NCBI GenBank assembly: GCA_015231925.1 | Contig: JADGAQ010000002.1 | Location: 4,791-68,790, forward strand | Source of the DNA: Magnetococcales bacterium | GTDB lineage: Bacteria; Pseudomonadota; Magnetococcia; Magnetococcales; JADGAQ01 | Direction: 5' to 3' | DNA length: 64,000 bases | Shown here: piece by piece, positions 8,579 to 57,560 of the stretch | How the letters are laid out: every line of letters begins with the position of its first letter | Numbering within the stretch: position 1 is the first letter of the stretch | The notes under the pieces: model-generated | The model's input: only the letters and a program-made list of their open reading frames with translations | Databases searched by the model: none | What the model was told of the DNA's origin: nothing | Program-made: the position numbers and the translations under genes

Positions 8579-11194
8579 ATGACCTGGGGATATGCCATCG
8601 AAGAGGAACAGAAAAAGCTCCGTAGCGAGGGCTACCTCTCTGGTGAACCGATAGGACTGGCTCTTTCGGGCGGAGGCATTCGCAGTGCCACCTTCAACCT
8701 GGGCCTGATTCAGGCACTGGCCAAAAAGAGGGTACTCACCTCTTTTTCTTACCTCTCCACCGTTTCGGGCGGCGGCTATATCGGCTCCTGGTTGATGACC
8801 TGGGCCAAGCAGTCGCCCAAGGGCATGGAGACCGTTCAGACCGCGCTGTCTTCAGCCAATGCCGAATCTGGAACCGAAGCAAAACCCGTAGCTTGGCTGA
8901 GGACCTACAGCAACTACCTCACCCCACGCAAAGGTTTGTTGACCCTGGATACTCTGACCGGAATCACCTACCAGTTTCGCAACGTTTTCCTGTCAAGTCT
9001 GGTGTTGACTCTGTTCGTTTCAGGCGTTTTATCCATCCTGGCTGGACTGGTCAATGGCGTAAAATATCTTCCGACTTCGTCCTTCCAAATTATCTTCCTG
9101 TTTTTTGGCTCGGTAGCAGCCTTTCTTTTTGGCAGAGCCCTGGCCCGATTGATCGACGACAACACCAACTCCGATTCCATCTCAACAAAACCAACCGCTT
9201 TCGGAATGGTCTTGGCGATACTGGCGTTCGGCTTCTGTAAGGATTCGACCCCCCTCTCCCCTCTGCATTTCGGTTTATCCGTCGGCACGGTTTACTTCCT
9301 CGGCGTAAGTATCGGTTCTTGGATGTTCCTGTCCAGAAAGAGCCTATGGGATCACTTGTTTCTTCGCTCTCTTTTTGCCGGATTTCCCATTTTCGCCATC
9401 GCCGGTTTCCTCCTCCCCGTCCTCCTGCAGCAAGGATCCTGGAACTCCTCCTGGGAACTGGCGGGATTTGGGGTGCCACTCGCCTGCCTGCTGTTCGCCC
9501 TGGCGGCCTCCGTTCACCTCGGTGTGATTGGTCGCCTTCTGCCCGACGAGGCCTATTTCTGGATCAGCCGCCTCGCGGGACGGCTGCTGCAATACTCCCT
9601 GATCTGGAGCCTGCCCTTCCTGATATTTCTGCTTGTACTACCGCTGATCGACTGGACGGAACACTTTGCCCTCGCCGGCGGCACCAGTGTCGTCTACGCC
9701 TTTCTGGTCCGATGGCTGGCAGCGGGCTCCAGCACCGGCGGAGAAGGCGCCAAGGCTGGAAAAGGCTGGAAAAATCAGTTGATCGAAGGCCTTGTCGCCA
9801 CCGCTCCCTATCTGTTGATGCTGCTGCTGGTTGGTTTCATGGCCTTGGGGGTGCGTTACGGTTTTGTTGAAAGGTTCGCGGACACCAAAGCCTCCGCCAA
9901 CACGCCCCCCTCCTGCACCCCGTGCCAGGTGGTCGTGGTAAACACCGGCGCCCAACCCGACTGCCAGACACAAAAATGCCTCGTCAGCGAGGGAAAACAT
10001 TCCCCCTACTATGGTGAAATGTATCAGGAAAATCTTAAACTGCTGGAAAAAATTTCGCCCTGGTGGGGCATAGCCATCGGGTTGGTTTTGGCTGAAATAT
10101 CGCTATTATTGTCGCACCTGATAGATGCCAATCTTTTTTCGCTGCACGGCTTCTACCGCAACCGCTTGACCAACGCCTATCTTGGCGCCAGCAATCCGAA
10201 TCGTCGTCACCCGCCTTCCGAAACCGGCGTCGACCCTGGGGACTCCCCCAAACTGGCCGATTTGGTAGGCATCCGCCCCTATTTTCTGATCAACACCACC
10301 TTGAATCTGACGGGCCGGAAAAACGACCTGGCTTGGCAAAATCGTCAGGGAGCCGCCTTTCTCTTTTCCCCGCTCTATTGCGGTTTCAGCGCAGGCGTCA
10401 CCAATGCATACAAACCCACAAAGGACTACGGCAAGGACGCCTCTCTACCTCTCAAGCTCGACTTGGCCATGACCATCTCCGGAGCCGCCGCCAGCCCTCT
10501 GGAGGGATTTCATACCAAACCGGGTCTGTCGATGCTTCTGGCCCTCCTGGGCGCACGCCTGGGATGGTGGTTGACGAATCCGGCAAAAGATGAATGGAAT
10601 AAAACTCCACCAAAAGCCACCCTCCTGACAACTCTCTACAAGGAAATGACGGCTCAAGCCGATGCCTCTCAACCGCTAGTCAACCTGAGCGACGGCGGCC
10701 ACTTCGAGAATCTCGGCATTTACGAACTGGTGCGACGACGTTGTACCGTCATCCTGGCCAGCGATGCCGGAGCGGATCCTGACTACGTTTTCGACGACTT
10801 GGGCAACGCTATCCACAAGATTCGTACCGATTTCGGCGTCGAAATCGACATCGATCCACTGCCCATCCGGCCTGCCGCATCATCAAATTCCACTTCGGGA
10901 ACCGTAGTGGGCAGTGACGAAAATTTTGTGGAAGGAACAATCCGTTATAGTACAAGTCCCCTGCCCTGGTTCAAGAACCTGAAAGACGGGAAACTGATCT
11001 ATCTCAAGGCCTCGCTTCCGAGGCCGTTCGAGAAAAAGGCTGCCGATGTGCTGTACTACGCAGCCACCCATCCCTTGTTTCCGCAGGAACCCACCTCCGA
11101 CCAATGGTTCAGTGAGGAGCAGTTCGAGGCCTATCGGAAACTGGGAGAATTGCTTGGGGAGTCTCTCCCCGACAACATGTTCAGTCCCTCATAG
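8579..11194 (+). CDS. Membrane-embedded cPLA2/patatin-like phospholipase
   Basis: Oxyanion motif LSGGGIRSA and nucleophile motif YLSTVSGGGYIGSW at the N-terminus. The Asp-dyad motif LSDGGHFENLGIYELVRRRCTVILASDAG lies about 630 aa later. About 9-10 hydrophobic helices sit between them (aa ~130-430). Confidence 0.7.
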   Translation: MTWGYAIEEEQKKLRSEGYLSGEPIGLALSGGGIRSATFNLGLIQALAKKRVLTSFSYLSTVSGGGYIGSWLMTWAKQSPKGMETVQTALSSANAESGTEAKPVAWLRTYSNYLTPRKGLLTLDTLTGITYQFRNVFLSSLVLTLFVSGVLSILAGLVNGVKYLPTSSFQIIFLFFGSVAAFLFGRALARLIDDNTNSDSISTKPTAFGMVLAILAFGFCKDSTPLSPLHFGLSVGTVYFLGVSIGSWMFLSRKSLWDHLFLRSLFAGFPIFAIAGFLLPVLLQQGSWNSSWELAGFGVPLACLLFALAASVHLGVIGRLLPDEAYFWISRLAGRLLQYSLIWSLPFLIFLLVLPLIDWTEHFALAGGTSVVYAFLVRWLAAGSSTGGEGAKAGKGWKNQLIEGLVATAPYLLMLLLVGFMALGVRYGFVERFADTKASANTPPSCTPCQVVVVNTGAQPDCQTQKCLVSEGKHSPYYGEMYQENLKLLEKISPWWGIAIGLVLAEISLLLSHLIDANLFSLHGFYRNRLTNAYLGASNPNRRHPPSETGVDPGDSPKLADLVGIRPYFLINTTLNLTGRKNDLAWQNRQGAAFLFSPLYCGFSAGVTNAYKPTKDYGKDASLPLKLDLAMTISGAAASPLEGFHTKPGLSMLLALLGARLGWWLTNPAKDEWNKTPPKATLLTTLYKEMTAQADASQPLVNLSDGGHFENLGIYELVRRRCTVILASDAGADPDYVFDDLGNAIHKIRTDFGVEIDIDPLPIRPAASSNSTSGTVVGSDENFVEGTIRYSTSPLPWFKNLKDGKLIYLKASLPRPFEKKAADVLYYAATHPLFPQEPTSDQWFSEEQFEAYRKLGELLGESLPDNMFSPS

Positions 11195-23335: not shown

Positions 23336-24508
23336 ATGGCTGAACGATTTTTACAATCCCATCGTCTGGTGATTTCCACCCTTTCACCAGTCCACATCGG
23401 TTGCGGGGAGGATTACGAACCCACCAACTACGTTATTGATGACAACAATAATACGTTGCACTATTTCGAACCAAGCGACCTTTTGACGCTGCCGCAATGG
23501 CCGGAACGGCGTCAAGAATTGCTCAACCTGGTTACCCGACAGGGAGGAAGCCAGGTGGTTCGCGGCATACAGACCTTTTTCCACAAACTGCGCAAGGAAA
23601 TCGCCCCCCTTTCCAGACATCAGGTAAGCGTTTCCCAAGGAATTATGGACTCTTACAAGGAACGTATCGGGCAAGTGGCGCAGCGGGAGTTCGGCAACAA
23701 GGAGACCCTCAACTCTCTGGGAATCCAACGCGGGTATTACCACCCCCACTCCGGTCAACCGATTCTTCCCGGCAGCAGTTTGAAAGGAGCCGTGCGCACG
23801 GCCTTGCTGAATCACGCCCATGGGGGCCAGAAGTTGAAACAGCCTGCTCTGGCGGAGCAACGCACCAATTGGAAAAAGCTCTCCCCGCTTGATGTGACGT
23901 TACGGAATTTTCATGGAGATTTTCACGCCGATCCCCTGCGCCTGATAAAGATTACCGACAGCACCCCATTCCCCACCGAGAAGATCAAACCGCTCATCTG
24001 CTTTGCCGTCAATCGGAGCAAACGGCCCGACGATACGAAAGAGCGGCCCTTTCAAATGAGGGAATGCCTTCCCGGAATGGCCAAAAAGGCTGTAGAGGCC
24101 GAGTTGATTTTGCATGATGTGGGTGCGCTGCGCTCCGAGAAGTTACCGGCCGTGCGTCCGACCATGGAAGAGATTGTGAAACGCTGCAATGACTATTATC
24201 TGCATCGGTTGCAGGAGAGTTTGAAACTGCCGGGTGTAGATAAAGAATGGATCAACAAGATTCAAAGGTCTTTAGATAGAAATATCTGGAGGCTTCAAGA
24301 GGGAGACTCTTTTTTGCTGCGTCTGGGCATGGGCAGCGGGTCCGAAAGCATTACGCTCGATGGAGCAAGACATATTCATCAGCCACAACATAGACAGTGG
24401 GTGGAAAAGCCCTCGACGGTCTGGCTGTTTTCCGAGATGGGCAAGGATGCAAGGGAGGGGCTGTTACCTTTTGGCTGGGTGCTGGTGGCCTGGGATAAAC
24501 GGCCATGA
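23336..24508 (+). CDS. csm5: RAMP protein Csm5 (Cas7 family)
   Basis: STLSPVHIGCGE and ILPGSSLKGAVRTALL motifs. It sits in the csm5 position of the operon. Confidence 0.85.
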   Translation: MAERFLQSHRLVISTLSPVHIGCGEDYEPTNYVIDDNNNTLHYFEPSDLLTLPQWPERRQELLNLVTRQGGSQVVRGIQTFFHKLRKEIAPLSRHQVSVSQGIMDSYKERIGQVAQREFGNKETLNSLGIQRGYYHPHSGQPILPGSSLKGAVRTALLNHAHGGQKLKQPALAEQRTNWKKLSPLDVTLRNFHGDFHADPLRLIKITDSTPFPTEKIKPLICFAVNRSKRPDDTKERPFQMRECLPGMAKKAVEAELILHDVGALRSEKLPAVRPTMEEIVKRCNDYYLHRLQESLKLPGVDKEWINKIQRSLDRNIWRLQEGDSFLLRLGMGSGSESITLDGARHIHQPQHRQWVEKPSTVWLFSEMGKDAREGLLPFGWVLVAWDKRP

Positions 24509-25446
24509 CGATCTATTCCCTTCCCCTGGCGCGATACCGTCTGGAGTGGCGGGTGGAGACACCGTTGCGCTTGCCGGAGTATGCCGGATCAGCGTTGCGG
24601 GGGGTGTTTGGCGCGGCTCTGCGGGGGCTGGCCTGTATCACTCGGGAAAGGGAGTGTCCGGGTTGCGGCCTTTTGCGCACCTGCCCCTATTCCCTGATCT
24701 TCGAAACCCCTGCCCCACTGGTGGCCGAAGGGGAAAAAGGCTTTGCGGTGACACCCAATCCCTACATTATCGAGCCGCCGCCCTGGGGGGTGCGGGAGTA
24801 TGGTGTCGGGGAGGCGTTGGTGTTTCATCTGGTGCTGGTGGGACGGGCGTTGGGCCATTTGCCCCTGCTGATATTGGCCTGGCAACGCGCCCTTGGCCGG
24901 GGTGTCGGGGCGGGAGATGGCAAAGCCGAGTTGCAACAGGTGGTGCTGGAAAGGTCGAACGGCGAAGAGGTGGTTTTTCGGCGGGAGGAAGGGCTGCTGC
25001 GCGACCACGACACGCAGGTTGTCGTGCCATCCTGGCCGGGACAGGAGGCTCTCACTCTGCATCTGCTCACCCCGGTCCGCATTCAGCGCGACGGTTCGCC
25101 TCTCGGTCCGGGACGCCTCACGCCACGGGATCTGCTGGTGGGGTTGATGCGTCGTATCGGTCAGATGGCTCATCTACATGCGGATGTCGACCCGGAGATC
25201 GATTACTCGGAGCTGTCCCGGCAGGCGGGTTTGATTCCGTGTCATGGCAACCTCGCCTGGCGGGACTGGACACGCCGTTCCGCCCGACAGCAGCAAACCA
25301 TGGCCTTGGGCGGTGTCGTCGGTCGATGGACTTTGACGGGTGATCTGCAACCTTTCTGGCCGTTTCTTTATCTGGGGCAGTGGTTGCATGTGGGCAAAAA
25401 TGCCACCTTCGGGTTGGGTGGGTACCAACTTGAAACGCAGGTTTGA
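24505..25446 (+). CDS. cas6: Cas6-family CRISPR endoribonuclease
   Basis: 313 aa. C-terminal G-rich loop HVGKNATFGLGGYQL and N-terminal CPGC...C cluster. ATGA overlap with csm5. It is the last gene before the leader. Confidence 0.75.
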   Translation: MTIYSLPLARYRLEWRVETPLRLPEYAGSALRGVFGAALRGLACITRERECPGCGLLRTCPYSLIFETPAPLVAEGEKGFAVTPNPYIIEPPPWGVREYGVGEALVFHLVLVGRALGHLPLLILAWQRALGRGVGAGDGKAELQQVVLERSNGEEVVFRREEGLLRDHDTQVVVPSWPGQEALTLHLLTPVRIQRDGSPLGPGRLTPRDLLVGLMRRIGQMAHLHADVDPEIDYSELSRQAGLIPCHGNLAWRDWTRRSARQQQTMALGGVVGRWTLTGDLQPFWPFLYLGQWLHVGKNATFGLGGYQLETQV

Positions 25447-27552: not shown

Positions 27553-27581
27553 TTGACTTATAGTACTAGGTACGATATCAT
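27553..27581 (+). promoter_or_regulatory. Candidate hicAB promoter with an embedded palindrome
   Basis: TTGACT (27553-27558), a 17-bp spacer containing the 8-bp palindrome TAGTACTA, then TATCAT (27576-27581). The hicA ATG is at 27589. Confidence 0.45.
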
Positions 27582-27588
27582 CACTGCC

Positions 27589-27816
27589 ATGAACACCTCC
27601 GCCAAACTCCTTGATGCCATGCAGACCAACCCCACCGACTGGAGGATCACCCAATTGCAGACGGTGGCCCAGCAGTACGGGATCACCTGGCGGCACAAGG
27701 GGACAAGCCATTGTTATTTCATGCGTGAAGACGGAGCCGTCCTTTCTGTGCCAGCCCAGCGCCCCATCAAACCGATCTACATCAAAAAATTCATTCTGTT
27801 CGTGAAAGGGGGCTGA
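27589..27816 (+). CDS. hicA: HicA-family mRNA interferase toxin
   Basis: 75 aa. ...WRHKGTSHCYF...LSVPAQRPIKPIYIKKFILFV matches the HicA pattern (GSH..F, VP..kpIKP.Y.K.f). ATG 27589 is preferred over the TTG at 27553. Confidence 0.7.
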   Translation: MNTSAKLLDAMQTNPTDWRITQLQTVAQQYGITWRHKGTSHCYFMREDGAVLSVPAQRPIKPIYIKKFILFVKGG

Positions 27817-27818
27817 CC

Positions 27819-28193
27819 GTGTATAAACCCGAAGATTACCCCTTCGAAATCAGGCCACTGGATCCGGAAGAAGGCGGCGGCTACCTGATCTCCTTCCCGG
27901 ACTTCTGCGAATGCCTCTCGGACGGCGAAACACCGGCGGAAGCGATTGAAAACGGCTTGGATGCCCTGCGAGGCCTGATCACACTCTTTGTGGAAGAGGG
28001 ACGCCCCCTACCAGCACCCCTGTCCGGCGGCTTTTCCGGAAAATTCGTGGCCAGAGTTCCCAAAACCCTGCATGCCCATCTCTCCGCCAGAGCCAAAGCG
28101 GAAGGGGTCAGTCTGAATACGCTGGTGGTGGCCCTGATCGCCGAAGGACTGGGAAGACGGGAGGCGGGAGAGATCCGAAGCCGTTCTGCATGA
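27819..28193 (+). CDS. hicB: HicB-family antitoxin with C-terminal RHH DNA-binding domain
   Basis: HicB fold N-terminus (FEIRPLDPEEGGGYLISFPDFCECLSDGETPAEAIENG). C-terminus FSGKFVARVPKTLHAHLSARAKAEGVSLNTLVVALIAEGL. The GTG start is 2 nt after the hicA stop. Confidence 0.8.
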   Translation: MYKPEDYPFEIRPLDPEEGGGYLISFPDFCECLSDGETPAEAIENGLDALRGLITLFVEEGRPLPAPLSGGFSGKFVARVPKTLHAHLSARAKAEGVSLNTLVVALIAEGLGRREAGEIRSRSA

Positions 28194-30842: not shown

Positions 30843-33461
30843 TTAATAAATACATTTATTGTTCAAGAACGCCGCATACTGCCGGTCCTCTTCTAAAATA
30901 TGATGAACCAACCAATCCGTAAAGAAGCTGCGGAAATCCTCCTTGGCCACTCCCCCACCCTTCAAGACCGCCCAATAGCCCACCACCCTCTCCACCAACC
31001 GTCGATGATGCTCCCGATGCACCGCCAACCCCGGATATCCATAAAGCGCCATCAACGCCTCCTCTTCCGCGAAATGATACCGGGTATAATCCATCAACGC
31101 CTGAAAGGCCCGCTCCAAAGGCGGCATCTCCCCCGCCCGCTGCATCTCGATAATGCCGTTGGCAATCTCCACCAAGGTCTTGTGCTGCGTGTCCATGCGC
31201 AAGACATGCACACTGAACTCCTCCCGCCAACGCAACACCTCCCGATCATTGCCGGCATGCACAATCTGCAAGGTGCGCCGCGTATACGACTCGAACAACT
31301 TCCAGCGAATGACGGGAATGTCCTTCAGCAACTCCCCATCCACCTGATAAACCTCCGTCTCCTCCTCCACCTCCAGCCGGAACAGACACGGCAGACTGAA
31401 TAACGCCCCCTCCTCCCCGAAATAGGCCCCGCGTTCCAGCATATCCAGAAACTCACTGCCCACCAAACGCCGCAACCGCCCGCTGCGCACCAGATTGAGA
31501 CTGGTCAGATCCTGACAGGTGATGCGCTCCCCCGGACGAAACCGCTTGACCCGCGCCCGATCCAATATCTGACTGAGTACCGGATAGGAAACCCCCTCCC
31601 CAAACAGCGTCGTGGTCTGGAAAAAGGACCACTTCTCCCATAACGCCTCGATCTTGGGCAACAAACCATTCAGCCGAACCAACTCCAGATAAAGCCTGCC
31701 GGGAATCCGCAACACCTGCACATAACTGGCCGCCCGATAGGTGGCCGGCGAGATTTGATGATGCAGACACGACTTCTCCCCGATCAACGCCCCCGCCGAC
31801 AGCCGACTCTGCACATTGTCCCGGGAGATGATGCGCTCCACCACCCCACCCAGAATCAACAACACATTGCCCGCCCGAGTGCCCTCCCGCAAAATGATGC
31901 TGCCCGGATTGAACTCCTCCAGATCGTTGTTGAGCAGAATGCGCACCTGATGCACCGGCATGTCCGGAAAATAGATGCGCAAATGCTCGAAAGCCCCACG
32001 GCGCGTGAAATCGGACTTGCCCACGATGAGAATGTCGGAGGTGCCATACGGCGCCGAAGAGCCGATCTCCTTCTCCTCGGAAGTCAACGGCCGCGCCACA
32101 TGCGCCAACAAAATCTTGCCCGAGGCATCCTGCCGGAAATCCTTGGCCTGCCCGTGAATCAACCCCCCGCCAATGTCGATCTTCTTCAAATCGGCGGGCG
32201 TCAGATAGGCCTCCTCCACCCGATTGTAAAACTCCCGACTCACCCCCGGAACAGAAGTGTCCGCCGTGATCATGCCCCGCAACAAATCCAACGGAACGAT
32301 ATCGGCAAAATGGGCATAGGTCTTGTAACCATTGGCCCACAGGGTGCGAAACAGAAAGATGGAGGTCTCCACCGGATGAGGCGAGAAGATAGGCTTGACC
32401 TCCACCCCTTCGATGTCATTCCACACATCGAAGGTCAAATCACAAATGTCGAAGAAATCCCGAAAACGCTCCTCCTCCATGGAAAGGAGCGCGGCAATCT
32501 TCTTCTCCGTCGAGGCCCGCACCAGCGGCGTGGCGAAATAACGGATGCGATGACCCGCCTGCATGAGAGTGGTGATGCCGGCAAAGTGGTCATCATGGGC
32601 ATGGGTGTGGAAAATGCCCTCCACTTCATCAAGCCCCACCCCCAACGCCGTGAGATTCTGCGCCAGATTGGGACCCGCATCCACCAGGAAGATGCGGCCT
32701 TGAAAAACCAGAATGCTTGACATGGCGGGACGATTGACATCCCAACCATCCCCCTCCCCGGAGTGAATAATAGAGAAGTAGTCCCGCACCAGACGCTGAT
32801 GCACCAGCGGATAGGGGGTTTCGTACTGCTCCCGCGGGGAGAGATTGAGATCCACCGCCACCTCCTCCTCCTGAAAGCGGAAGACGTAGTGGTTGGTGGC
32901 GGTGCGCCGGATGAAAAGACCGTTGCGGATTTCCACCTCCGTCTGCTCCACCAGACAGGTGTCGAGCAGCTCCTGGGAGGGACGAATGCGCCCGAAGGCA
33001 AAACGCAGCTTGAGACGCATTTGCTCCTGCGCCGCCTCCCGGGAGAGCCCGGCCTGCATCAGCTCCTCCAGGGAAACCAGCCCGTAATTGCCGCGATAGA
33101 TGTATTGCAACTGGGCGTTGACCTGCTGCGGCAACCCGATGAGCAGCGGCTTGGCCCCGGTATTGTTGGGATGCCCCGGCAGAATCATGCCCTGTTTGTA
33201 GAGCATCTGCAGCACGGGAAACTCACTCAAATTGGCGAAATCCCCGTTCTGCAACATGGTGTCGGAGAGCAGAATGGCGTTGGGCCCGCTTTCGCACGGC
33301 ACCCCCTGCTTCTCCTTCTGCAGGATGAGACCCCGCTTGATCAGATGCTTGACGCTGTCGGCGGGACATCCGCACAAAATGCGCAGATCGGCCAACGGGG
33401 CCTCCACCCAGTAGATGCCTTGGGATACCGCAATTTTATGGAGTTTCTCCATGCCATCCAC
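30843..33461 (-). CDS. MBL-fold hydrolase (class-II-PDE-like HxHxDH) + two cNMP-binding domains + hemerythrin domain
   Basis: FHTHAHDDHFAGI; two cNMP-binding-like domains (GALIGEKSCL...RAASYVQVLRI; GAYFGEEGALF); C-terminal hemerythrin (HKTLVEI...HFAEEEALM...HREHHRRL...WLVHHILEEDRQY). The N-terminal ~230 aa are unassigned. Start is GTG 33461 or ATG 33452. Confidence 0.75.
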   Translation of the reverse strand: MDGMEKLHKIAVSQGIYWVEAPLADLRILCGCPADSVKHLIKRGLILQKEKQGVPCESGPNAILLSDTMLQNGDFANLSEFPVLQMLYKQGMILPGHPNNTGAKPLLIGLPQQVNAQLQYIYRGNYGLVSLEELMQAGLSREAAQEQMRLKLRFAFGRIRPSQELLDTCLVEQTEVEIRNGLFIRRTATNHYVFRFQEEEVAVDLNLSPREQYETPYPLVHQRLVRDYFSIIHSGEGDGWDVNRPAMSSILVFQGRIFLVDAGPNLAQNLTALGVGLDEVEGIFHTHAHDDHFAGITTLMQAGHRIRYFATPLVRASTEKKIAALLSMEEERFRDFFDICDLTFDVWNDIEGVEVKPIFSPHPVETSIFLFRTLWANGYKTYAHFADIVPLDLLRGMITADTSVPGVSREFYNRVEEAYLTPADLKKIDIGGGLIHGQAKDFRQDASGKILLAHVARPLTSEEKEIGSSAPYGTSDILIVGKSDFTRRGAFEHLRIYFPDMPVHQVRILLNNDLEEFNPGSIILREGTRAGNVLLILGGVVERIISRDNVQSRLSAGALIGEKSCLHHQISPATYRAASYVQVLRIPGRLYLELVRLNGLLPKIEALWEKWSFFQTTTLFGEGVSYPVLSQILDRARVKRFRPGERITCQDLTSLNLVRSGRLRRLVGSEFLDMLERGAYFGEEGALFSLPCLFRLEVEEETEVYQVDGELLKDIPVIRWKLFESYTRRTLQIVHAGNDREVLRWREEFSVHVLRMDTQHKTLVEIANGIIEMQRAGEMPPLERAFQALMDYTRYHFAEEEALMALYGYPGLAVHREHHRRLVERVVGYWAVLKGGGVAKEDFRSFFTDWLVHHILEEDRQYAAFLNNKCIY

Positions 33462-33687
33462 CCGCGTCGTTCTTTGGAAGTGGAACTTTATCTATTTTCC
33501 AGTCGATATACTGTGCCGCAATTGCCGTCGGGATACAATACCGGTTTCGGTGCCGGGCAATCGCTTGTAACGACGGGGGACCGGCGGACCCCCGTCGTTA
33601 CCAATCCCACCCGTTTTGCCGCGCAACAGAGCCCAGGTTGCCTATTGTTGCGGAAGAGGGTAACCTTACCCCAGGAGGTGGGCTGCC

Positions 33688-35778
33688 ATGGTCAGTCATA
33701 AGGAACTGGAACAGGTTGAATTGTTTCGCGGGATGAATCTCAAAGTGATCCGCAAGGGATTACGGGGTTCGCGCGTCACCGAACTTGCCGGTGGCCAGGT
33801 GCTTCTCTCACCGGACCACGACAATCATCGCCTGTTCGTTCTGCTCTCCGGACGCCTCGCCATCCATTTCGACCGCCGCGAGCCCCCCGAACGCTACATC
33901 GAACCCGGCGGCGCCGTCGGCGAAAGCTCCCTGCTGGAACGCTCCCGCCCCTCGGCCTTCGTCATCGTGGTGGAACCTTCACGGGTGCTGGAAATCACCG
34001 AGGAGGATCTCTGGTCCCTGATGCGCCTTGACGGCACCGCCGCCGTCAACCTGCTGAAAACCTTGATCACCTGGATGAAATCCAACACCGGAAAGGTGAT
34101 GGCCAAACAACAGAAGCTGATGCAGAGCGAAGCCCGCATCCGCTCCATTCTGGAAACCGCCGTTCACGGCATCATCGTCATCAACGAAGCCGGATTGATC
34201 GAATCCTTCAATCTGGCGGCGGAAAAGATGTTCGGCTATGGCGCACAAGAGGTTTACGGCAAAAACGTCAACCTGTTGATGCCCTCCCCCGATGCCGAAA
34301 ACCACGACGGCTACCTGGACCGCTATCGGGAAACCGGGGTGAAGCGCATCCTGGGCAACGGCCGGGAGCTGTTGGGCAAACGCAAGGACGGCACCCTCTT
34401 TCCCATCGAACTCTCGGTCAGCGAGGTGCCCCTGCCCCAGGGTCGGCTCTTCACCGGCGTGGTCATCGACATCACCGCCCGCAAGGAGGCCCAGGAGCGT
34501 CTGCAAGCCCTGCACAACGCCGCCGACCGTTTCGTGCCCCACCGCTTCATCGAACTGCTTGGCAAGCCGGACATCACCGGCGTGGCCCTCGGCGACAGCA
34601 TCGAAGCCTCGATGACGGTCCTCTTCTCCGATATCCGCGGCTTCACCTCCCTTTGCGAGGTGATGACCCCTCACGAGGTCTTTCTCTTCATCAACGGCTA
34701 CCTGAAACGCATGGAACCGCCGATTCAACAACACGGCGGCGTCATCGACAAGTTCATCGGGGACGCCATCATGGCCCTCTTCCCTGCCTCGCCCGATGAA
34801 GCGGTCCAGGCGGCCCTGGCCATGTGCCAGGAGGTGGACCGATACAATCTGGAACGCATCCACTACCAGAAACTGCCCCTGCGCATGGGCATCGGTCTCA
34901 ATACCGGCCGGGTGATGCTGGGTACCATCGGCGGTCGGGAACGCATGGAAAACACCGTGATCGGCGACGTGGTCAACATCGCCTCCCGCATGGAAGGCCT
35001 GACCAATCAGTACGAAACACGCCTGCTGATCACCCACGAAACCCGTTTCCACCTGCAGCATCCGGAACGCTTCTCCATGCGCCTGATCGACTATCTCCGA
35101 CCACGGGGACGGCAGATGCCGGTGCTGGTTTACGAAGTCTTCGATACCGATGTCGACTCCCTCCGGCACGAGAAACAGATCACCCGCACCCAGTTCGAGG
35201 AGGCGGTGGCCCTCTTCCATCTCGGCGAACTGACCGCGGCCCACGACCTCTTCCTGACCTGCCAAACCCATGGCGGACGGGATCCGGTGGCCAAGATCTA
35301 TCTGGAACGCATCGCCACCTATCTCAAGGAAGGGCGTCTTCCCAACGGGGGATCCGCCGGTCGAGCCATGCTCTGGACCCCGGAACTGGCCATCGGGGTG
35401 GAAAATATCGATAGCCAACACCGTCAGATCATGGAAATGGCCTCTCGGGTGGAAGCGGCTCTCCATTCCCGTCATACCCGGGAGGTTCTGCTCGAATCCA
35501 TGAACTTCCTGATGGATTACACCCTCAACCATTTCAGTGAAGAAGAGACGTTGATGGAGAAATGGGGCTATCCCGCCATGGCTCTGCATCGCGCCAAACA
35601 TCGCGCCTTCACCGTCGACTTCCAGCGTCTCCGGGACGAAATGGCCGGATCGGATCATCGGGAGGCCTATCTGCTGTTCCGCCTGCAGTCGCTGCTTTTC
35701 GACTGGCTGGTCAACCACATCGCCCGGGAAGATCAGAAAATTGGCGTCTACCTGCGTGGCGGAGCGTCAACGGATTGA
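33688..35778 (+). CDS. cNMP-binding + PAS + class III nucleotidyl cyclase + hemerythrin domain protein
   Basis: cNMP-binding domain (GGAVGESSLL...RPSAFVIVVEPSRVLEI), PAS, cyclase motifs (VLFSDIRGFTSL, KFIGDAIMALF, TVIGDVVNIASRMEGLT) and hemerythrin (IDSQHRQIM...HFSEEETLM...HRAKHRAF...WLVNHIAREDQKI). RBS AGGAGG. Confidence 0.85.
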   Translation: MVSHKELEQVELFRGMNLKVIRKGLRGSRVTELAGGQVLLSPDHDNHRLFVLLSGRLAIHFDRREPPERYIEPGGAVGESSLLERSRPSAFVIVVEPSRVLEITEEDLWSLMRLDGTAAVNLLKTLITWMKSNTGKVMAKQQKLMQSEARIRSILETAVHGIIVINEAGLIESFNLAAEKMFGYGAQEVYGKNVNLLMPSPDAENHDGYLDRYRETGVKRILGNGRELLGKRKDGTLFPIELSVSEVPLPQGRLFTGVVIDITARKEAQERLQALHNAADRFVPHRFIELLGKPDITGVALGDSIEASMTVLFSDIRGFTSLCEVMTPHEVFLFINGYLKRMEPPIQQHGGVIDKFIGDAIMALFPASPDEAVQAALAMCQEVDRYNLERIHYQKLPLRMGIGLNTGRVMLGTIGGRERMENTVIGDVVNIASRMEGLTNQYETRLLITHETRFHLQHPERFSMRLIDYLRPRGRQMPVLVYEVFDTDVDSLRHEKQITRTQFEEAVALFHLGELTAAHDLFLTCQTHGGRDPVAKIYLERIATYLKEGRLPNGGSAGRAMLWTPELAIGVENIDSQHRQIMEMASRVEAALHSRHTREVLLESMNFLMDYTLNHFSEEETLMEKWGYPAMALHRAKHRAFTVDFQRLRDEMAGSDHREAYLLFRLQSLLFDWLVNHIAREDQKIGVYLRGGASTD

Positions 35779-36079: not shown

Positions 36080-36092
36080 ATGCCACAATCTT

Positions 36093-36543
36093 TTGACTTT
36101 CAATATGTTATCTTTTAAATATCAAAAAAAGGAAATGTTCTGTCCTTTGACTTTTCGTGACCATTCACTCCTCCTATTTCTCCCCAGCCCCCGAGGGGCC
36201 ATCTGGTCGGGGGGCTGGACGGAAACGGATGGGGCAAAGGACAGAACATTTCCTTTTTTGGATACGTATACCGTGTCTACTTTGGAATACATAATTTTTC
36301 TGTATCTGTTCAAGTATACGGGGGTTTGGAGGGGATTACCCCCCCCCAACGGGTCCAGGGCAGCGCCCTGGGACTTTTCCTTTCGCCGTTGACTTCGTCA
36401 TATCGCGCTGCGCGGGATCCTGAATAGTTATAGAAAAATTACGCATTCCAAAATGGACACGGTATAAATGAATGAAAAATAAAAAGTCAAAGGATAGAAC
36501 ATTTCCTTTTATTGATACTTAAAAGATAACATATTGAAAGTCA
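36093..36543. mobile_element. TIR60-bounded composite carrying a family-D element
   Basis: Forward TIR60 36093-36152, internal partial reverse copy ~36233-36270, second inverted pair ATACCGTGTC.../...GACACGGTAT, reversed family-D core ~36302-36431, and reverse TIR60 36483-36543. Confidence 0.8.
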
Positions 36544-55307: not shown

Positions 55308-57560
55308 ATGGCTCCCTTTACCGATTCCCAGCACTTGCGGGCACGACTCCCGGCTTCCGGATGGCTGGGCGGAGCCGCGGTCCTCCTGGTCCTCGTTCTG
55401 GCCCGCCTGACCCCCGCCGAAATCGCCTGGCCGGGCGGCGTCCTCCTGGCCCTGATCACCATCTGGGGAGTCGGCAAGACGGCCATGCGGCGCGAAGAGC
55501 GGCTGCAACGCCTGGGAGATCTCGTCCAACAGCGTTGTGAACCCCAACGCACCGATACCGCTCCAATCGAGGAACTCCTGCCGCGTCTGGCCCATCTCGT
55601 CGAAAACAGCGCCCGCGCCATGGCCCTCCATGCCGGCAACGTCACGGCGCTGGTCTGCGATATCGTCCAGGTACACCGGTTCCTGAGCAAGGACTCCACC
55701 GACCTGGCCAGCCTCTCCCGGAACATTCAAAGCGAAAATGATCGCCTGCTTGGGGAAGTCGCCAACATCAGCGAACAGATGAGTGTTCTGAACGGCTATG
55801 TGGAGGCCATTTCGGCCCAGGCCGGCGCCATCGTGCAAGAGACCACCGCCGTCAGCGAAACCACCTCCGTGGCGCACGGAGCCATGGCCGCCATGGTGAA
55901 CGGCAGCGAGGAGATGTCGCGAACCATCTCCGTGGTGCATCGCAATCTGGCGGAGGTGGAAGCCTTCTCCAGCGGGGTGATGCAAACCATGCAGGAGATG
56001 ATCCGCGCCATCGAACAGGTGCGCGCCATCACCACCCGGGCGGATCAGGCCTCTCTTCGCGCCCACGCCGCCACGATGGAAAACGAAACGGTCATGGAGC
56101 GTCTGGCAGGCCTGGCGCGAGACATCGGCGCCATGGTGGAAGCGATCACCGATATCGCCGCCCAAACCAACATGCTGGCTCTGAACGCCGCCATCGAGGC
56201 CGCCGGCGCCGGCAGCGCCGGACGCGGATTCGCGGTGGTGGCGGGAGAGATCAAACAATTGGCCAGCCAGACCGCTACCGCCACCCAGGAGATCATTTCC
56301 AAAATCGGCGACATTCAGGAAGAGGTCAAACAGGCCAATACCTCTTCCCGCACCACCTCGGAGACCATGTCCATCCTGCTGGGTTTCAACCGGCAGATCT
56401 CCTCGGCCATGGAACAGCGTCTGCTCGCCATTCATCGGGTCAACGAATCCCTCTCCCAGGTTCAAACCGTGTTGGCCAGCATCACCCACAACACCCGTGG
56501 TCTCGAAGAGGCCGCCACCCGGGTACACCGTGACGCGGATCAGGCGGCGCATCTCACCCGAACCGCCGCCGGCCAGGCCGAGGCCGCCGCCAGCGCCGCC
56601 GAAACCATCCGCTCCCACATCGAGGAGGGACGCCGCTCTTCCCTGGCCACTCTGGCTTCGACCCGGGCTACGCACCAACTGGCCACCACCACCCGGGAAT
56701 CACTGGTGCGTTCTTTGCGCCTGAGCGGTTTTCTGCACGGCTCCATCAGTCAGTTCCAGGCATCAAGCACCTTCGCCAGGGAGATCAACGATCACCTGCT
56801 GGCCTGGAAACCCCGTTTGCCGCCCTTCCAGGAACCGTTCGACATCAAACGCATGAAGGAGCCCCTGCTGATTCTGGGGGGACGGCTGGCCAAAGCCTTT
56901 CACGGCAACATACCCCGGCAGGAAAACCTCTCCTGGGAAGAGAGTTATCCCGGCTTATGGCTGAACCGCTGCCCCCTCGACGCCCAGCAAACCCGCCCCG
57001 TGATTCAGGAACTCAAATCCGCTTACGAACTGGCCCTTCAAGGCCTCGCCGCTTTGCGGGATAATCGTCGGGACCAGGCGGTGCAGCTTGTCGAGGCCTT
57101 TCACCAACAACGCCGCCTCTTTTTCAACGCCGTGGATACCCTCTATCTGCAACTCGACATCCCTCCGCTGGATCTGCCCGCCATGCGGTGGAGTGCCGAT
57201 CTGGCCATCGGCCATGCCGACATCGATGCGGCGCATCAACGCATCTACTCTTTGGTCAATCAATTGTATCTCGCCCTGACCCGCAGTCAGGATCAGGCCG
57301 GACGTCTGGCCCTCTTCAAGGAACTCAATACCTTGTTATTGAAGCATTTCCGTGAAGAAGAGGCCCTCATGGACCAGACGAACCATCCCGATCGGGAGTT
57401 TCACAAAAGCCAGCACCGCATTTTGCAGCAACGTCTCTCCGGTCATATCGAATCCGGGGAGGTGGAGAGTCTGACCCTCTCCCTGGATCTGCTCTCCTTC
57501 CTGGAAAACTGGTTTTCCTATCATATCTGCCATGTGGACAGTCGTCTGAAGTCCCGATGA
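55308..57560 (+). CDS. Methyl-accepting chemotaxis protein with C-terminal hemerythrin domain
   Basis: Two N-terminal TM helices. MCP signalling hairpin ([37 protein letters not shown]). Hemerythrin ([11 protein letters not shown]...HFREEEALM...HKSQHRIL...[13 protein letters not shown]). Confidence 0.88.

What the first reader, a model, noticed from the sequence alone, without database searches (positions are those of the whole stretch)
30843..35778. Divergent pair: a cNMP cyclase and an MBL-fold putative cNMP phosphodiesterase, both carrying cNMP-binding and hemerythrin domains
Gene 33688..35778 combines a cNMP-binding domain, PAS, a class III cyclase domain and a C-terminal hemerythrin. The divergently transcribed 30843..33461 combines an MBL-fold hydrolase with the HxHxDH signature of class II cyclic-nucleotide phosphodiesterases, two cNMP-binding domains and the same type of hemerythrin. 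MBL plus tandem cNMP-binding domains is the architecture of the Dictyostelium GbpA/GbpB cyclic-nucleotide-stimulated phosphodiesterases. A bacterial version that is additionally hemerythrin-tagged and paired with a product-sensing cyclase would form a closed synthesis/degradation loop, with feedback on both arms and a shared O2/iron/redox input. I know of no described bacterial module of this kind, but I cannot search to confirm that.
Basis: partly seen in the sequence, partly recalled or inferred. Interest (0 to 1): 0.72.

Follow-up and report, generated by a model that had tools for sequence, protein, structure and literature searches.

The report
Two adjacent oxygen-sensor enzymes, not a module
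An oxygen-sensing adenylate cyclase and a sensor-tagged metallo-hydrolase that probably cleaves cyclic nucleotides lie back to back in this Magnetococcales genome, but the pairing is not conserved and the proposed feedback sites look non-functional; the hydrolase does belong to a large, widespread, unstudied enzyme family.

Summary
Three things need adding. The cyclase's PAS is a FixL-type heme-PAS, so that protein carries two putative O2 sensors. The cyclase has Lys/Thr specificity residues, so it is predicted to be a class IIIb adenylate cyclase. The MBL protein has a further ~225-aa N-terminal domain that is the most conserved part of the protein and has no Pfam or PDB sequence match; its predicted fold is weakly MBL-like.

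The "closed loop module" reading is not supported. Of 80 species-representative loci with the MBL gene, only 4 have any class III cyclase within 10 kb, and none is divergent. The cyclase's orthologues sit next to rsmJ and gltB. No neighbour of the MBL gene is conserved. All three cNMP-binding-fold domains lack the phosphate-binding Arg, family-wide.

The PDE idea partly survives. The catalytic MBL has all its metal ligands, and its nearest solved relatives are YhfI, Apyc1 and RNase Z. The pseudo-MBL+MBL core is fused to REC, CHASE2, SBP, CNB or hemerythrin sensors in at least 516 genomic loci and 633 sequence clusters, and none is characterised.

Verdict: ordinary adjacency of two one-component sensors. 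The MBL family itself is a worthwhile target of unknown substrate.

The parts
30843..33461 (-). Gene A: [N-terminal conserved domain]-[catalytic MBL]-[CNB-A]-[CNB-B]-[bacteriohemerythrin]. 872 aa from the GTG; the probable true start is the ATG at 33452 (869 aa).
   Evidence: P0001 is 100% identical, 869 aa
32784..33452 (-). N-terminal domain (res 4-226). It has no Pfam or PDB sequence match. Invariant motifs are LCGCP.D..KH (res 29-39), FPVLQMLY.QG (81-91), HPNN.G (97-102) and YRGNYGL (122-128). The predicted fold is weakly MBL-like (pseudo-MBL, tentative).
   Evidence: Foldseek best hit Apyc1 7u2r, E 4e-4, then PNGM-1, RNase J/Z; no sequence-level support
32007..32783 (-). Catalytic metallo-beta-lactamase-fold domain (res 227-485). 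Motifs: HSGEGDGWD; H287xH289xD291H292 (32586..32603); H362; D387; H436; H454. All are invariant in the family.
31626..31979 (-). CNB-A fold (res 495-612). The cassette is non-canonical: Ser571 sits at the Arg position, and the Glu after Gly561 is not conserved in the family.
31242..31625 (-). CNB-B fold (res 613-740). FGEE..P is retained, but Cys692 (C/S/G/Y across the family) sits at the Arg position.
30855..31235 (-). Bacteriohemerythrin domain (res 743-869) with the complete diiron ligand set: H760, H796, E800, H815, H819, H854, D859.
   Evidence: (DcrH-Hr 2avk, E 2.4e-20)
33462..33687 (.). 226-bp divergent intergenic region. It contains a 35-bp palindrome at 33567-33601 (17-nt arms, 1 mismatch) that is unique in the window. 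No sigma-70 consensus was found.
33688..35778 (+). Gene B: [CNB-like]-[FixL-type heme-PAS]-[class IIIb adenylate cyclase]-[bacteriohemerythrin], 696 aa.
33715..34077 (+). CNB-like domain (res 10-130). The cassette reads G78-E..R87-P88-S-A-F91, with Pro at the canonical Arg position.
34123..34503 (+). Heme-PAS (res 146-272). His206, Arg212 and Arg226 align with BjFixL His200, Arg206 and Arg220.
   Evidence: FixL model, E 8.6e-41; 1dp6, E 6.6e-33
34585..35127 (+). Class III cyclase catalytic domain (res 300-480). Metal ligands Asp315/Asp359; specificity Lys355/Thr423; transition state Asn430/Arg434.
   Evidence: (CyaB 3r5g and bPAC have K/T; the guanylate cyclase Cya2 2w01 has E/G)
35368..35754 (+). 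Bacteriohemerythrin domain (res 561-689). Ligand motifs are present: H578, H615..E619, H634..H638, H677..D682.

Best explanation
The two genes are independent one-component O2/redox sensors that happen to be neighbours in this Magnetococcales genome, where signalling genes are very dense. They are not a conserved synthesis/degradation module.

Gene B is predicted to make cAMP. It is a class IIIb cyclase with a Lys/Thr specificity pair. Its activity would be set by two different O2/redox-sensing cofactor domains in the same chain: a FixL-type heme-PAS upstream of the catalytic domain and a diiron hemerythrin downstream. Its N-terminal CNB-like domain lacks the phosphate-clamping Arg, so it probably does not sense cAMP in the canonical way.

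Gene A belongs to a large, uncharacterised bacterial family. The invariant ~480-aa core is a novel N-terminal domain (predicted pseudo-MBL) packed against a catalytically complete binuclear MBL of the YhfI/Apyc1/RNase Z type. That arrangement is a single-chain version of the homodimer those enzymes form. The core behaves as a signalling output domain, because in different members it is coupled to REC, CHASE2, SBP_bac_3, tandem CNB-fold domains and hemerythrin.

The most likely chemistry is hydrolysis of a phosphodiester, most plausibly a 3',5'-cyclic nucleotide. Activity would be gated by the tandem CNB-fold module, whose ligand is unknown and is probably not cAMP/cGMP bound canonically. In this subfamily it would also be gated by the O2/redox/iron state of the hemerythrin.

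Shown here: domain composition, catalytic and cofactor ligands, fold neighbours, family breadth, lack of synteny, and non-canonical cassettes. Inferred: the substrate, cofactor loading, the direction of regulation, and any functional coupling of the two enzymes through a shared cAMP pool.
For: Domains.

Cyclase:
- Lys355/Thr423 as in CyaB and bPAC, against Glu/Gly in the guanylate cyclase Cya2.
- Heme pocket residues conserved relative to BjFixL.
- Hemerythrin ligand sets complete.

MBL protein:
- All metal ligands are invariant across 21-43 homologues.
- With the family profile, the best solved MBL match is Apyc1 (E 1.3e-7), ahead of any RNase Z.
- Foldseek gives YhfI/1zkp/Apyc1 at TMt 0.72, RNase Z at 0.56-0.66 and ELAC2 at TMq ~0.53.
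- YhfI prefers cAMP/cGMP, and Apyc1/YhfI/PDE1/RNase Z are homodimeric class II MBL phosphodiesterases (PMC9117128).
- The N-terminal domain model matches Apyc1, PNGM-1 and RNase J/Z.

Family breadth and architectures:
- At least 516 loci in species-representative genomes.
- 633 clusters at 50% identity.
- Architectures: core only, core+2CNB, core+2CNB+Hr, REC-, CHASE2- and SBP-fused.

No synteny.

Signalling-dense neighbourhood (GGDEF, HD-GYP, GGDEF-EAL, MCP-Hr).

Non-canonical cassettes.
Against: - No activity data exist for any member, so the substrate is inferred from distant relatives (about 15% identity to YhfI/Apyc1). The Pfam Apyc1 score (18-27 bits) is well below its cutoff of 50.
- The pseudo-MBL reading of the N-terminal domain rests on a weak fold match (TM ~0.4). 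It has no sequence support: hhalign probability 0.1%, and 0 PDB hits.
- Three lineages do place a class III cyclase in or next to the MBL gene's apparent operon: this window, L002 (Fer2-cyclase immediately downstream), and L014/L015 (cyclase-PilZ two genes upstream). Some functional link to cyclases cannot be dismissed.
- The two genes share a 226-bp divergent promoter region with a unique palindrome.
Confidence: 0.6

Rival explanations
1. The divergent pair is a dedicated closed loop: the cyclase makes a cNMP, the MBL enzyme degrades it, both are allosterically controlled by that cNMP through their CNB domains, and both share an O2/iron input through hemerythrin.
For: - The genes are adjacent, with a shared 226-bp divergent control region carrying a unique 35-bp palindrome.
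- Both proteins carry CNB-fold and hemerythrin domains.
- The MBL domain is nearest to cNMP-hydrolysing MBLs.
- Class III cyclases of other architectures lie operon-like beside the MBL gene in L002 and L014/L015.
Against: - The pair is absent from 76 of 80 loci and is never divergent.
- The cyclase's orthologues sit between rsmJ and gltB.
- The closest MBL relatives have unrelated neighbours.
- 4 cyclases in 1.39 Mb of flanking DNA (~3 per Mb) looks similar to my rough guess of how often class III cyclases occur in signalling-rich genomes; that background was not measured here.
- All three CNB cassettes lack the phosphate-binding Arg.
- The hemerythrin domains are only 33% identical, and hemerythrin tags are common in this genome.
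Confidence: 0.12
2. Gene A is a sensor-regulated phosphodiesterase for a different substrate: RNA (RNase Z/ELAC2- or RNase J-like processing), a cyclic dinucleotide, 2',3'-cNMP, or another nucleotide messenger. In this case the CNB-fold domains are allosteric sites for an unrelated ligand.
For: - RNase Z, ELAC1/2, RNase J and PhnP are among the top fold matches, and the two-domain model superposes on long-form RNase Z (TMq ~0.53).
- NCBIfam's best MBL-region hit is RNase Z (34.5 bits).
- The N-terminal pseudo-MBL plus C-terminal catalytic MBL layout is that of ELAC2.
- The CNB cassettes are non-canonical.
Against: - The catalytic domain is compact (~255 aa) like YhfI and Apyc1, and it is best covered by them (TMt 0.72 against 0.56-0.66 for RNase Z).
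- The RNase Z equivalog models score far below cutoff (34.5 against 293 bits).
- By family profile, Apyc1 outranks all RNases in the PDB.
- Fusion to REC, CHASE2 and CNB sensors is, from general knowledge of bacterial signalling proteins, typical of second-messenger enzymes rather than RNases.
Confidence: 0.22
3. The pair is a Pycsar-like anti-phage system. The cyclase produces a cNMP on infection, and the neighbouring protein is a CNB-domain effector whose MBL nuclease domain is the toxic output.
For: - PADLOC PycC models match the cyclase (best E 7e-28), and PycTIR/effector models match the CNB regions of both proteins.
- The cyclase's CNB is weakly similar to PycTIR 8jsk.
- A CRISPR-Cas6 gene and a HicAB pair lie upstream in the window.
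Against: - The PADLOC matches are generic class III cyclase and CNB homology.
- The cyclase has the purine-type Lys/Thr pair and physiological sensor domains (heme-PAS, hemerythrin).
- The MBL family is 50-60% identical across phyla, has no conserved partner, and is fused to REC, CHASE2 and SBP sensors. That is the opposite of a fast-evolving two-gene defence cassette.
- There is no TIR or TM effector.
Confidence: 0.03

Closest known systems
Dictyostelium GbpA (PDE5/PdeD) and GbpB (PDE6/PdeE), 'class IIb' MBL-type cNMP-stimulated phosphodiesterases
   Same: The domain order is the same: an MBL-fold catalytic domain followed by two CNB-fold domains (PMC11988041). The overall size (~870 aa) is similar to what I recall for GbpA.
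   Different: The bacterial family adds a conserved ~225-aa N-terminal domain and, in this subfamily, a C-terminal hemerythrin. Both CNB domains lack the phosphate-binding Arg family-wide, whereas GbpA/B are activated by cGMP/cAMP. None of the 150 best cluster representatives shows homopolymer runs; the two most AT-rich, read directly, did not look protist, and one (P0363) sits on a contig with compact bacterial gene spacing.
YhfI (B. subtilis) and Apyc1 (phage/bacterial) MBL-fold cNMP phosphodiesterases
   Same: A compact binuclear MBL with HxHxDH. These are the best-covered fold matches (TMt 0.72) and the best PDB sequence match with the family profile (Apyc1, E 1.3e-7). Both hydrolyse 3',5'-cNMPs (PMC9117128).
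   Different: Identity is only ~15%, and the Pfam Apyc1 score is below its cutoff. YhfI and Apyc1 are ~245-aa stand-alone homodimers without sensor domains. Here the partner subunit seems to be replaced by a fused degenerate domain, and sensors are appended.
Long-form RNase Z (ELAC2/Trz1)
   Same: A single chain with an N-terminal catalytically dead MBL-like domain and a C-terminal active MBL. The 500-aa model aligns over ~700 columns at TMq ~0.5.
   Different: RNase Z HMMs score far below cutoff. RMSDs are large (9-20 A). No internal sequence similarity is detectable. Sensor fusions are unknown for RNase Z.
FixL / DosP heme-PAS O2 sensors, and hemerythrin-coupled signalling enzymes (DcrH, Bhr-DGC, Bhr-HD-GYP)
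   Same: Gene B's PAS is ~50% identical to the BjFixL heme domain and keeps its key residues. Both genes' C-terminal domains match DcrH-Hr and bacteriohemerythrin models.
   Different: The output here is a class III adenylate cyclase (gene B) or an MBL hydrolase (gene A). The outputs the 2022 review describes do not include a cyclase or an MBL hydrolase (PMC9388753). Combining heme-PAS and hemerythrin in one protein is rare: only P0127 shares the heme pocket among the listed homologues.
Class IIIb adenylate cyclases (P. aeruginosa CyaB, bPAC, Spirulina CyaC)
   Same: All catalytic residues are present, with the Lys/Thr substrate pair.
   Different: The sensor complement differs (CNB-like + heme-PAS + hemerythrin). 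A simpler cyclase-hemerythrin core of ~430-465 aa is widespread and also uncharacterised.

Membership tests
Class II cNMP phosphodiesterase sensu Pfam PF02112 (yeast PDE1, V. fischeri CpdP, Dictyostelium PdsA) | MBL fold with a binuclear HxHxDH site | tested here: met
   H287xH289xD291H292, H362, D387 and H436/H454 are invariant. The fold is MBL.
Class II cNMP phosphodiesterase sensu Pfam PF02112 (yeast PDE1, V. fischeri CpdP, Dictyostelium PdsA) | Match to the PDEase_II profile | tested here: not met
   No PF02112 hit for the MBL region even at E<=10.
Class II cNMP phosphodiesterase sensu Pfam PF02112 (yeast PDE1, V. fischeri CpdP, Dictyostelium PdsA) | Hydrolysis of 3',5'-cAMP/cGMP | not testable with these tools
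   Needs an enzyme assay.
Dictyostelium GbpA/GbpB-type (class IIb) cNMP-stimulated PDE | MBL catalytic domain followed by two CNB domains | tested here: met
   Pfam finds two cNMP_binding stretches after the MBL. The tandem CNB region matches PKG CNB-A/B at E 2.5e-24.
Dictyostelium GbpA/GbpB-type (class IIb) cNMP-stimulated PDE | CNB domains competent for cNMP binding (canonical phosphate-binding cassette G-E...R-[ST]-A-[ST]) | tested here: not met
   Ser571 and Cys692 sit at the Arg position. None of 270 family members has a canonical cassette in the tandem CNBs.
Dictyostelium GbpA/GbpB-type (class IIb) cNMP-stimulated PDE | Sequence or structure orthology of the catalytic region to GbpA/B | not testable with these tools
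   The GbpA/B sequences were not retrievable. The afdb50 library was unavailable. The original papers are not held.
YhfI/Apyc1-type MBL cNMP phosphodiesterase | Compact ~245-aa MBL closely superposable on YhfI/Apyc1 | tested here: met
   Foldseek E 1e-10 to 1e-8, TMt 0.67-0.72 for 6kns/6knt/1zkp/7u2r/7u2s/7t28.
YhfI/Apyc1-type MBL cNMP phosphodiesterase | Pfam PF23023 (Anti-Pycsar_Apyc1) at or above the gathering score | tested here: not met
   17.8-20.2 bits against a cutoff of 50. Up to 26.9 bits in core-only members.
Long-form RNase Z (ELAC2) | N-terminal pseudo-MBL plus C-terminal catalytic MBL in one chain | tested here: inconclusive
   The N-domain model matches MBL folds only weakly (E 4e-4, TM ~0.4). 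ELAC2 gives TMq ~0.53. hhalign finds no internal similarity.
Long-form RNase Z (ELAC2) | RNase Z family HMM above cutoff | tested here: not met
   TIGR02651 scores 34.5 bits against a cutoff of 293, over 59 residues only.
Class III (IIIb) adenylate cyclase (gene B) | Two metal Asp, transition-state Asn/Arg, and a Lys + Thr/Asp substrate pair | tested here: met
   D315, D359, N430, R434, K355, T423. These were aligned to CyaB 3r5g, bPAC and Cya2 and are invariant in homologues.
FixL-type heme-PAS O2 sensor (gene B) | Proximal His and the Arg residues of the heme pocket | tested here: met
   His206/Arg212/Arg226 align with BjFixL His200/Arg206/Arg220 (E 6.6e-33). Heme loading itself is not testable here.
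Bacteriohemerythrin domain (both genes) | H...HxxxE...HxxxH...HxxxxD diiron ligands; NCBIfam NF033749 above cutoff | tested here: met
   106.4 and 102.4 bits against a cutoff of 84. The ligands are invariant.
Conserved divergent cyclase/PDE gene pair (the proposed module) | Co-occurrence of the two genes as neighbours across genomes | tested here: not met
   4 of 80 loci have any class III cyclase within 10 kb, and none is divergent. No neighbour is conserved. The cyclase's orthologues have rsmJ and gltB as neighbours.
Pycsar anti-phage system | Two-gene cassette of a PycC cyclase plus a CNB-TIR or CNB-TM effector | tested here: not met
   Only generic PycC/CNB homology in PADLOC. There is no TIR or TM effector, the cyclase carries physiological sensor domains, and the pair is not conserved.

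The most novel reading that the evidence does not exclude
The ~480-aa pseudo-MBL+MBL core of gene A defines a new, widespread class of bacterial second-messenger phosphodiesterase output domain. It would be a single-chain version of the YhfI/Apyc1 dimer and the prokaryotic counterpart of Dictyostelium GbpA/B. In gradient-dwelling bacteria (Magnetococcales, Gallionellaceae, Magnetospirillum, Campylobacterota, anammox Planctomycetota, Nitrospinota) it would act as an O2/redox-gated cNMP phosphodiesterase. Its Arg-less tandem CNB domains would sense a ligand other than cAMP/cGMP, for example a nucleoside or 5'-NMP, as I recall has been reported for trypanosomatid PKA regulatory subunits.
Probability: 0.3. 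Interest if true: 0.7.

Novelty: new variant of a known kind. Interest (0 to 1): 0.45.

Why it matters
To my knowledge, cAMP/cGMP turnover in bacteria is usually attributed to CpdA-type (class III) phosphodiesterases.

A strongly conserved, sensor-coupled MBL family is present in hundreds of species and fused to REC, CHASE2, SBP, CNB and hemerythrin modules. If it hydrolyses cyclic nucleotides, it would be a major unrecognised arm of bacterial second-messenger control. It would also give Dictyostelium GbpA/B a prokaryotic context.

The Arg-less CNB pair raises a concrete and testable question about what such domains bind.

Gene B combines heme-PAS and hemerythrin on one adenylate cyclase. It would be a compact system for asking how two O2 sensors with different chemistries are integrated.

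The specific claim that prompted the finding, a dedicated closed-loop gene module, does not hold. The locus itself is therefore of modest interest.

Tried and rejected
- **Older papers.** The original GbpA/PdeD papers and Bader 2007 are not held.
- **Literature searches.** Searches for hemerythrin + CNB + MBL, hemerythrin + class III cyclase, heme-PAS adenylate cyclase, and the family in magnetotactic bacteria found nothing relevant.
- **Internal duplication.** hhalign of the N-terminal domain against the catalytic MBL gave probability 0.1%. The N-domain profile against PDB sequences gave 0 hits at E<=10. Pfam on the N-domain gave only a sub-threshold AbiEi_4 hit.
- **Conserved neighbours.** De novo clustering of neighbours across 80 loci gave no cluster in more than 4 loci.
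- **R576 as a shifted cassette Arg.** I rejected this. The G(0)..(+10)..T(+13) spacing is canonical, and R576 aligns with CAP R87 / PKA K214 in beta7 (plus my recollection of the CAP and PKA sequences).
- **Regulatory signals.** The promoter scan of the intergenic region found no sigma-70 match there. Rfam found nothing credible.
- **Defence-system membership.** Only generic homology.
- **Eukaryote-like members.** None of the 150 best representatives shows homopolymer runs, and the two most AT-rich, read directly, did not look protist. P0363 is a catalytically degenerate bacterial member.

Full report
**1. Observation**

Both ORFs are present as stated. The window is a Magnetococcales MAG contig: identical proteins P0001 and P0121 are annotated 'bacteriohemerythrin' on a 78-kb contig.

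Gene A (30843..33461, minus strand) contains an MBL domain with H287-x-H289-x-D291-H292, two cNMP_binding stretches and a bacteriohemerythrin domain. NCBI's model starts at the ATG at 33452.

Gene B (33688..35778, plus strand) contains cNMP_binding, PAS, a class III cyclase domain and a bacteriohemerythrin domain.

**2. Gene B, the cyclase**

- The catalytic domain aligns best with bacterial class III cyclases (Cya2 2w01, CyaB 3r5g, bPAC; E 1e-25 to 1e-21).
- At the substrate-defining positions it has Lys355 (IDKFIGD) and Thr423 (ENTVIGD), like the adenylate cyclases CyaB and bPAC. The guanylate cyclase Cya2 has Glu and Gly there.
- The metal Asp residues (315, 359) and Asn430/Arg434 are present and are invariant among homologues. 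It is therefore predicted to be a class IIIb adenylate cyclase.
- Its PAS domain is a FixL-type heme-PAS, not a generic PAS. It scores E 8.6e-41 to NCBIfam's FixL model and E 6.6e-33 to the BjFixL heme domain. His206, Arg212 and Arg226 align with the proximal His200 and with Arg206 and Arg220.
- With the C-terminal hemerythrin, whose ligand set is complete, the protein carries two chemically different putative O2/redox sensors.
- The full four-domain architecture is rare. Only a few Magnetococcales proteins (P0123-P0126, 40-43% identity) share it, and in those the heme pocket is deleted or replaced. Only P0127 keeps it.
- A simpler cyclase-hemerythrin protein of ~430-465 aa is widespread. It did not appear in any paper I could find.

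**3. Gene A, the MBL protein**

*Family.* It belongs to a tightly conserved family of ~870 aa, 50-62% identical across Magnetococcales, Gallionellaceae, Rhodocyclales, Rhodospirillales/Magnetospirillum, Campylobacterota, Planctomycetota, Nitrospinota and Desulfobacterales. An exhaustive phmmer search with residues 1-500 found 633 clusters at 50% identity, 210 of them at E<=1e-30.

*N-terminal domain.* Residues 1-500 are the most conserved part of the protein, and within them residues 4-226 form a domain with no Pfam or PDB sequence match. It has invariant motifs LCGCP.D..KH, FPVLQMLY.QG, HPNN.G and YRGNYGL.

*Catalytic domain.* AlphaFold models are confident (pLDDT 87 for residues 1-500, 79 for 1-228). 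The catalytic domain (227-485) falls in the phosphodiesterase branch of the MBL superfamily: RNase Z, ElaC-like 1zkp, YhfI, PhnP and Apyc1. The compact cNMP phosphodiesterases YhfI and Apyc1 are the best covered (TMt 0.72), while RNase Z gives 0.56-0.66. With the family profile, the best solved MBL by sequence is Apyc1 (E 1.3e-7), and no RNase Z appears in the top 60. Hobbs et al. 2022 report that YhfI prefers cAMP/cGMP. They group Apyc1, YhfI, yeast PDE1 and RNase Z as homodimeric class II MBL phosphodiesterases (PMC9117128).

*Tandem arrangement.* The N-terminal domain's own model matches MBL folds weakly: Apyc1 at E 4e-4, then PNGM-1 and RNase J/Z, with TM ~0.4. The two-domain model aligns to long-form RNase Z at TMq ~0.53. 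This suggests a fused pseudo-dimer. However, hhalign finds no internal similarity, so I treat this as tentative.

*Architectures.* The core occurs in these forms:
- alone, ~480 aa (P0274, P0304);
- with two CNBs, ~730 aa, which is the commonest form among cluster representatives;
- with two CNBs plus hemerythrin, ~870 aa;
- with REC (P0241), CHASE2 (P0252) or SBP_bac_3 (P0250) at the N-terminus.

That is the behaviour of a signalling output domain.

**4. The CNB domains**

The tandem region is unmistakably CNB-fold (E 2.5e-24 to PKG). In the canonical register, G(0)-E(+1)...P(+9)-R(+10)...T(+13), the sites read as follows:

| Domain | Residue at +10 (Arg position) | Other features |
|---|---|---|
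| Gene A CNB-A | Ser571 | Glu at +1 is not conserved in the family |
| Gene A CNB-B | Cys692 (C/S/G/Y across the family) | FGEE...P is retained |
| Gene B CNB | Pro88 | Arg87 at +9, Phe91 at +13; orthologues read F-[AS]-T-A-F |

The conserved Arg576 in CNB-A aligns with the beta7 residue (CAP Arg87 / PKA Lys214), not with the phosphate clamp. A regex scan found no canonical cassette in the tandem CNBs of 270 family members. The only canonical cassette is in an extra third CNB of P0325. Canonical cNMP sensing is thus unsupported on either arm.

**5. Is the pair a module?**

- Among 80 species-representative loci (1.39 Mb), only 4 contain any class III cyclase within 10 kb by tblastn or by a cyclase HMM. 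None is in the divergent-upstream position.
- No window neighbour, and no de novo neighbour cluster, recurs in more than 4 loci.
- From the other side, the cyclase's orthologues lie between rsmJ and glutamate synthase in three genomes.
- The closest MBL relative (P0002) and M. marinus MC-1 have unrelated neighbours.
- The window region is packed with signalling genes: PAS-GAF-GGDEF, RR-HD-GYP, Hpt-RR-RR-GGDEF, PAS3-GGDEF-EAL and an MCP-hemerythrin.
- The two hemerythrin domains are only 33% identical.

A caveat applies. In L002 a Fer2-cyclase gene follows the MBL gene directly. In L014/L015 a cyclase-PilZ gene lies two genes upstream on the same strand. With this window, that makes three lineages with different cyclases beside the gene. 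The overall density (~3 per Mb) looks similar to my rough guess for signalling-rich genomes; no background was measured here. I read this as at most a weak hint of functional linkage.

**6. Mechanism, with rivals**

Most likely (0.6), these are two independent one-component sensors.
- Gene B makes cAMP under control of heme-PAS and hemerythrin.
- Gene A is a sensor-gated phosphodiesterase-type hydrolase. It most plausibly acts on a 3',5'-cNMP, with an unknown ligand for its Arg-less CNB pair and an O2/redox/iron input from hemerythrin.
- If both act on cAMP they would influence the same pool, but as parts of the cell's general network and not as a dedicated cassette.

Rivals:
- a different phosphodiester substrate, including RNA (0.22);
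- a Pycsar-like defence pair (0.03; PADLOC shows only generic homology).

**7. Comparison and novelty**

The closest known systems are Dictyostelium GbpA/B (same MBL + 2 CNB order), YhfI/Apyc1 (nearest catalytic domains), ELAC2 (tandem layout), and FixL and DcrH for the sensors. The family fails the profile tests for PDEase_II, Apyc1 and RNase Z, and it fails the canonical-cassette test for GbpA-like regulation. It should therefore not be filed as a member of any of them. It is a new variant of the MBL phosphodiesterase kind. No paper in the held library describes it.

Interest in the locus as proposed is modest. The family itself is a good experimental target.

Noticed in passing
window 28390, 30423, 30781, 36128, 36233, 36486, 37302, 37438, 58989, 62292, 62473 (24-nt core; full unit ~70 nt, e.g. 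36087-36157): An AT-rich ~70-nt repeat (core AAAGGAAATGTTCTGTCCTTTGAC) occurs 11 times in the window, where 0 copies are expected by chance. The copies lie in gaps between the long ORFs, often as inverted pairs. Pairs bracket the two-gene block (30423/30781 and 36128/36233) and the DUF2062 gene. It looks REP/MITE-like.
   Followed up: partly
window 33567-33601: A 35-bp near-perfect palindrome (GTAACGACGGGGGACCG / CGGACCCCCGTCGTTAC) lies in the middle of the 226-bp divergent intergenic region. It is unique in the window and could be an operator or a 5'-UTR hairpin.
   Followed up: partly
window 8579..11194 (+): An 871-aa ORF with no Pfam hit at all. It is not related to the MBL family: one search found no second match to the N-terminal or MBL domain in the window.
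   Followed up: no
window 55308..57560 (+): A third hemerythrin-tagged signalling protein, an MCP with a C-terminal hemerythrin (DcrH-like), showing that hemerythrin tags are common in this genome.
   Followed up: partly
window 24505..25446 (+) and 27553..28193 (+): A Cas6 endoribonuclease gene, implying a CRISPR-Cas locus upstream, and a probable HicA/HicB toxin-antitoxin pair (HicB confirmed by Pfam; the upstream 87-aa ORF not scanned) just before glnS.
   Followed up: no
P0145-P0240 (not in the window): A widespread ~430-465-aa cyclase-hemerythrin protein family (Desulfobacula, Holophagaceae, Rhodocyclaceae and many metagenomes). It is the common core of gene B and seems uncharacterised.
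   Followed up: no
P0363 / L084:909-3056: A member of the MBL family from an AT-rich bacterium has lost the catalytic motif (SSNLHDDN in place of HTHAHDDH) and the GEGDGWD motif but keeps the N-terminal domain and the CNBs. It is a naturally inactivated variant.
   Followed up: partly
L014:7418-12610 and L002:10001-14419: Operon-like clusters link the MBL gene to other class III cyclases: cyclase-PilZ, then an FGE-sulfatase-domain protein, then the MBL gene in Gallionellaceae; and the MBL gene followed by a Fer2-cyclase in another Magnetococcales MAG.
   Followed up: partly
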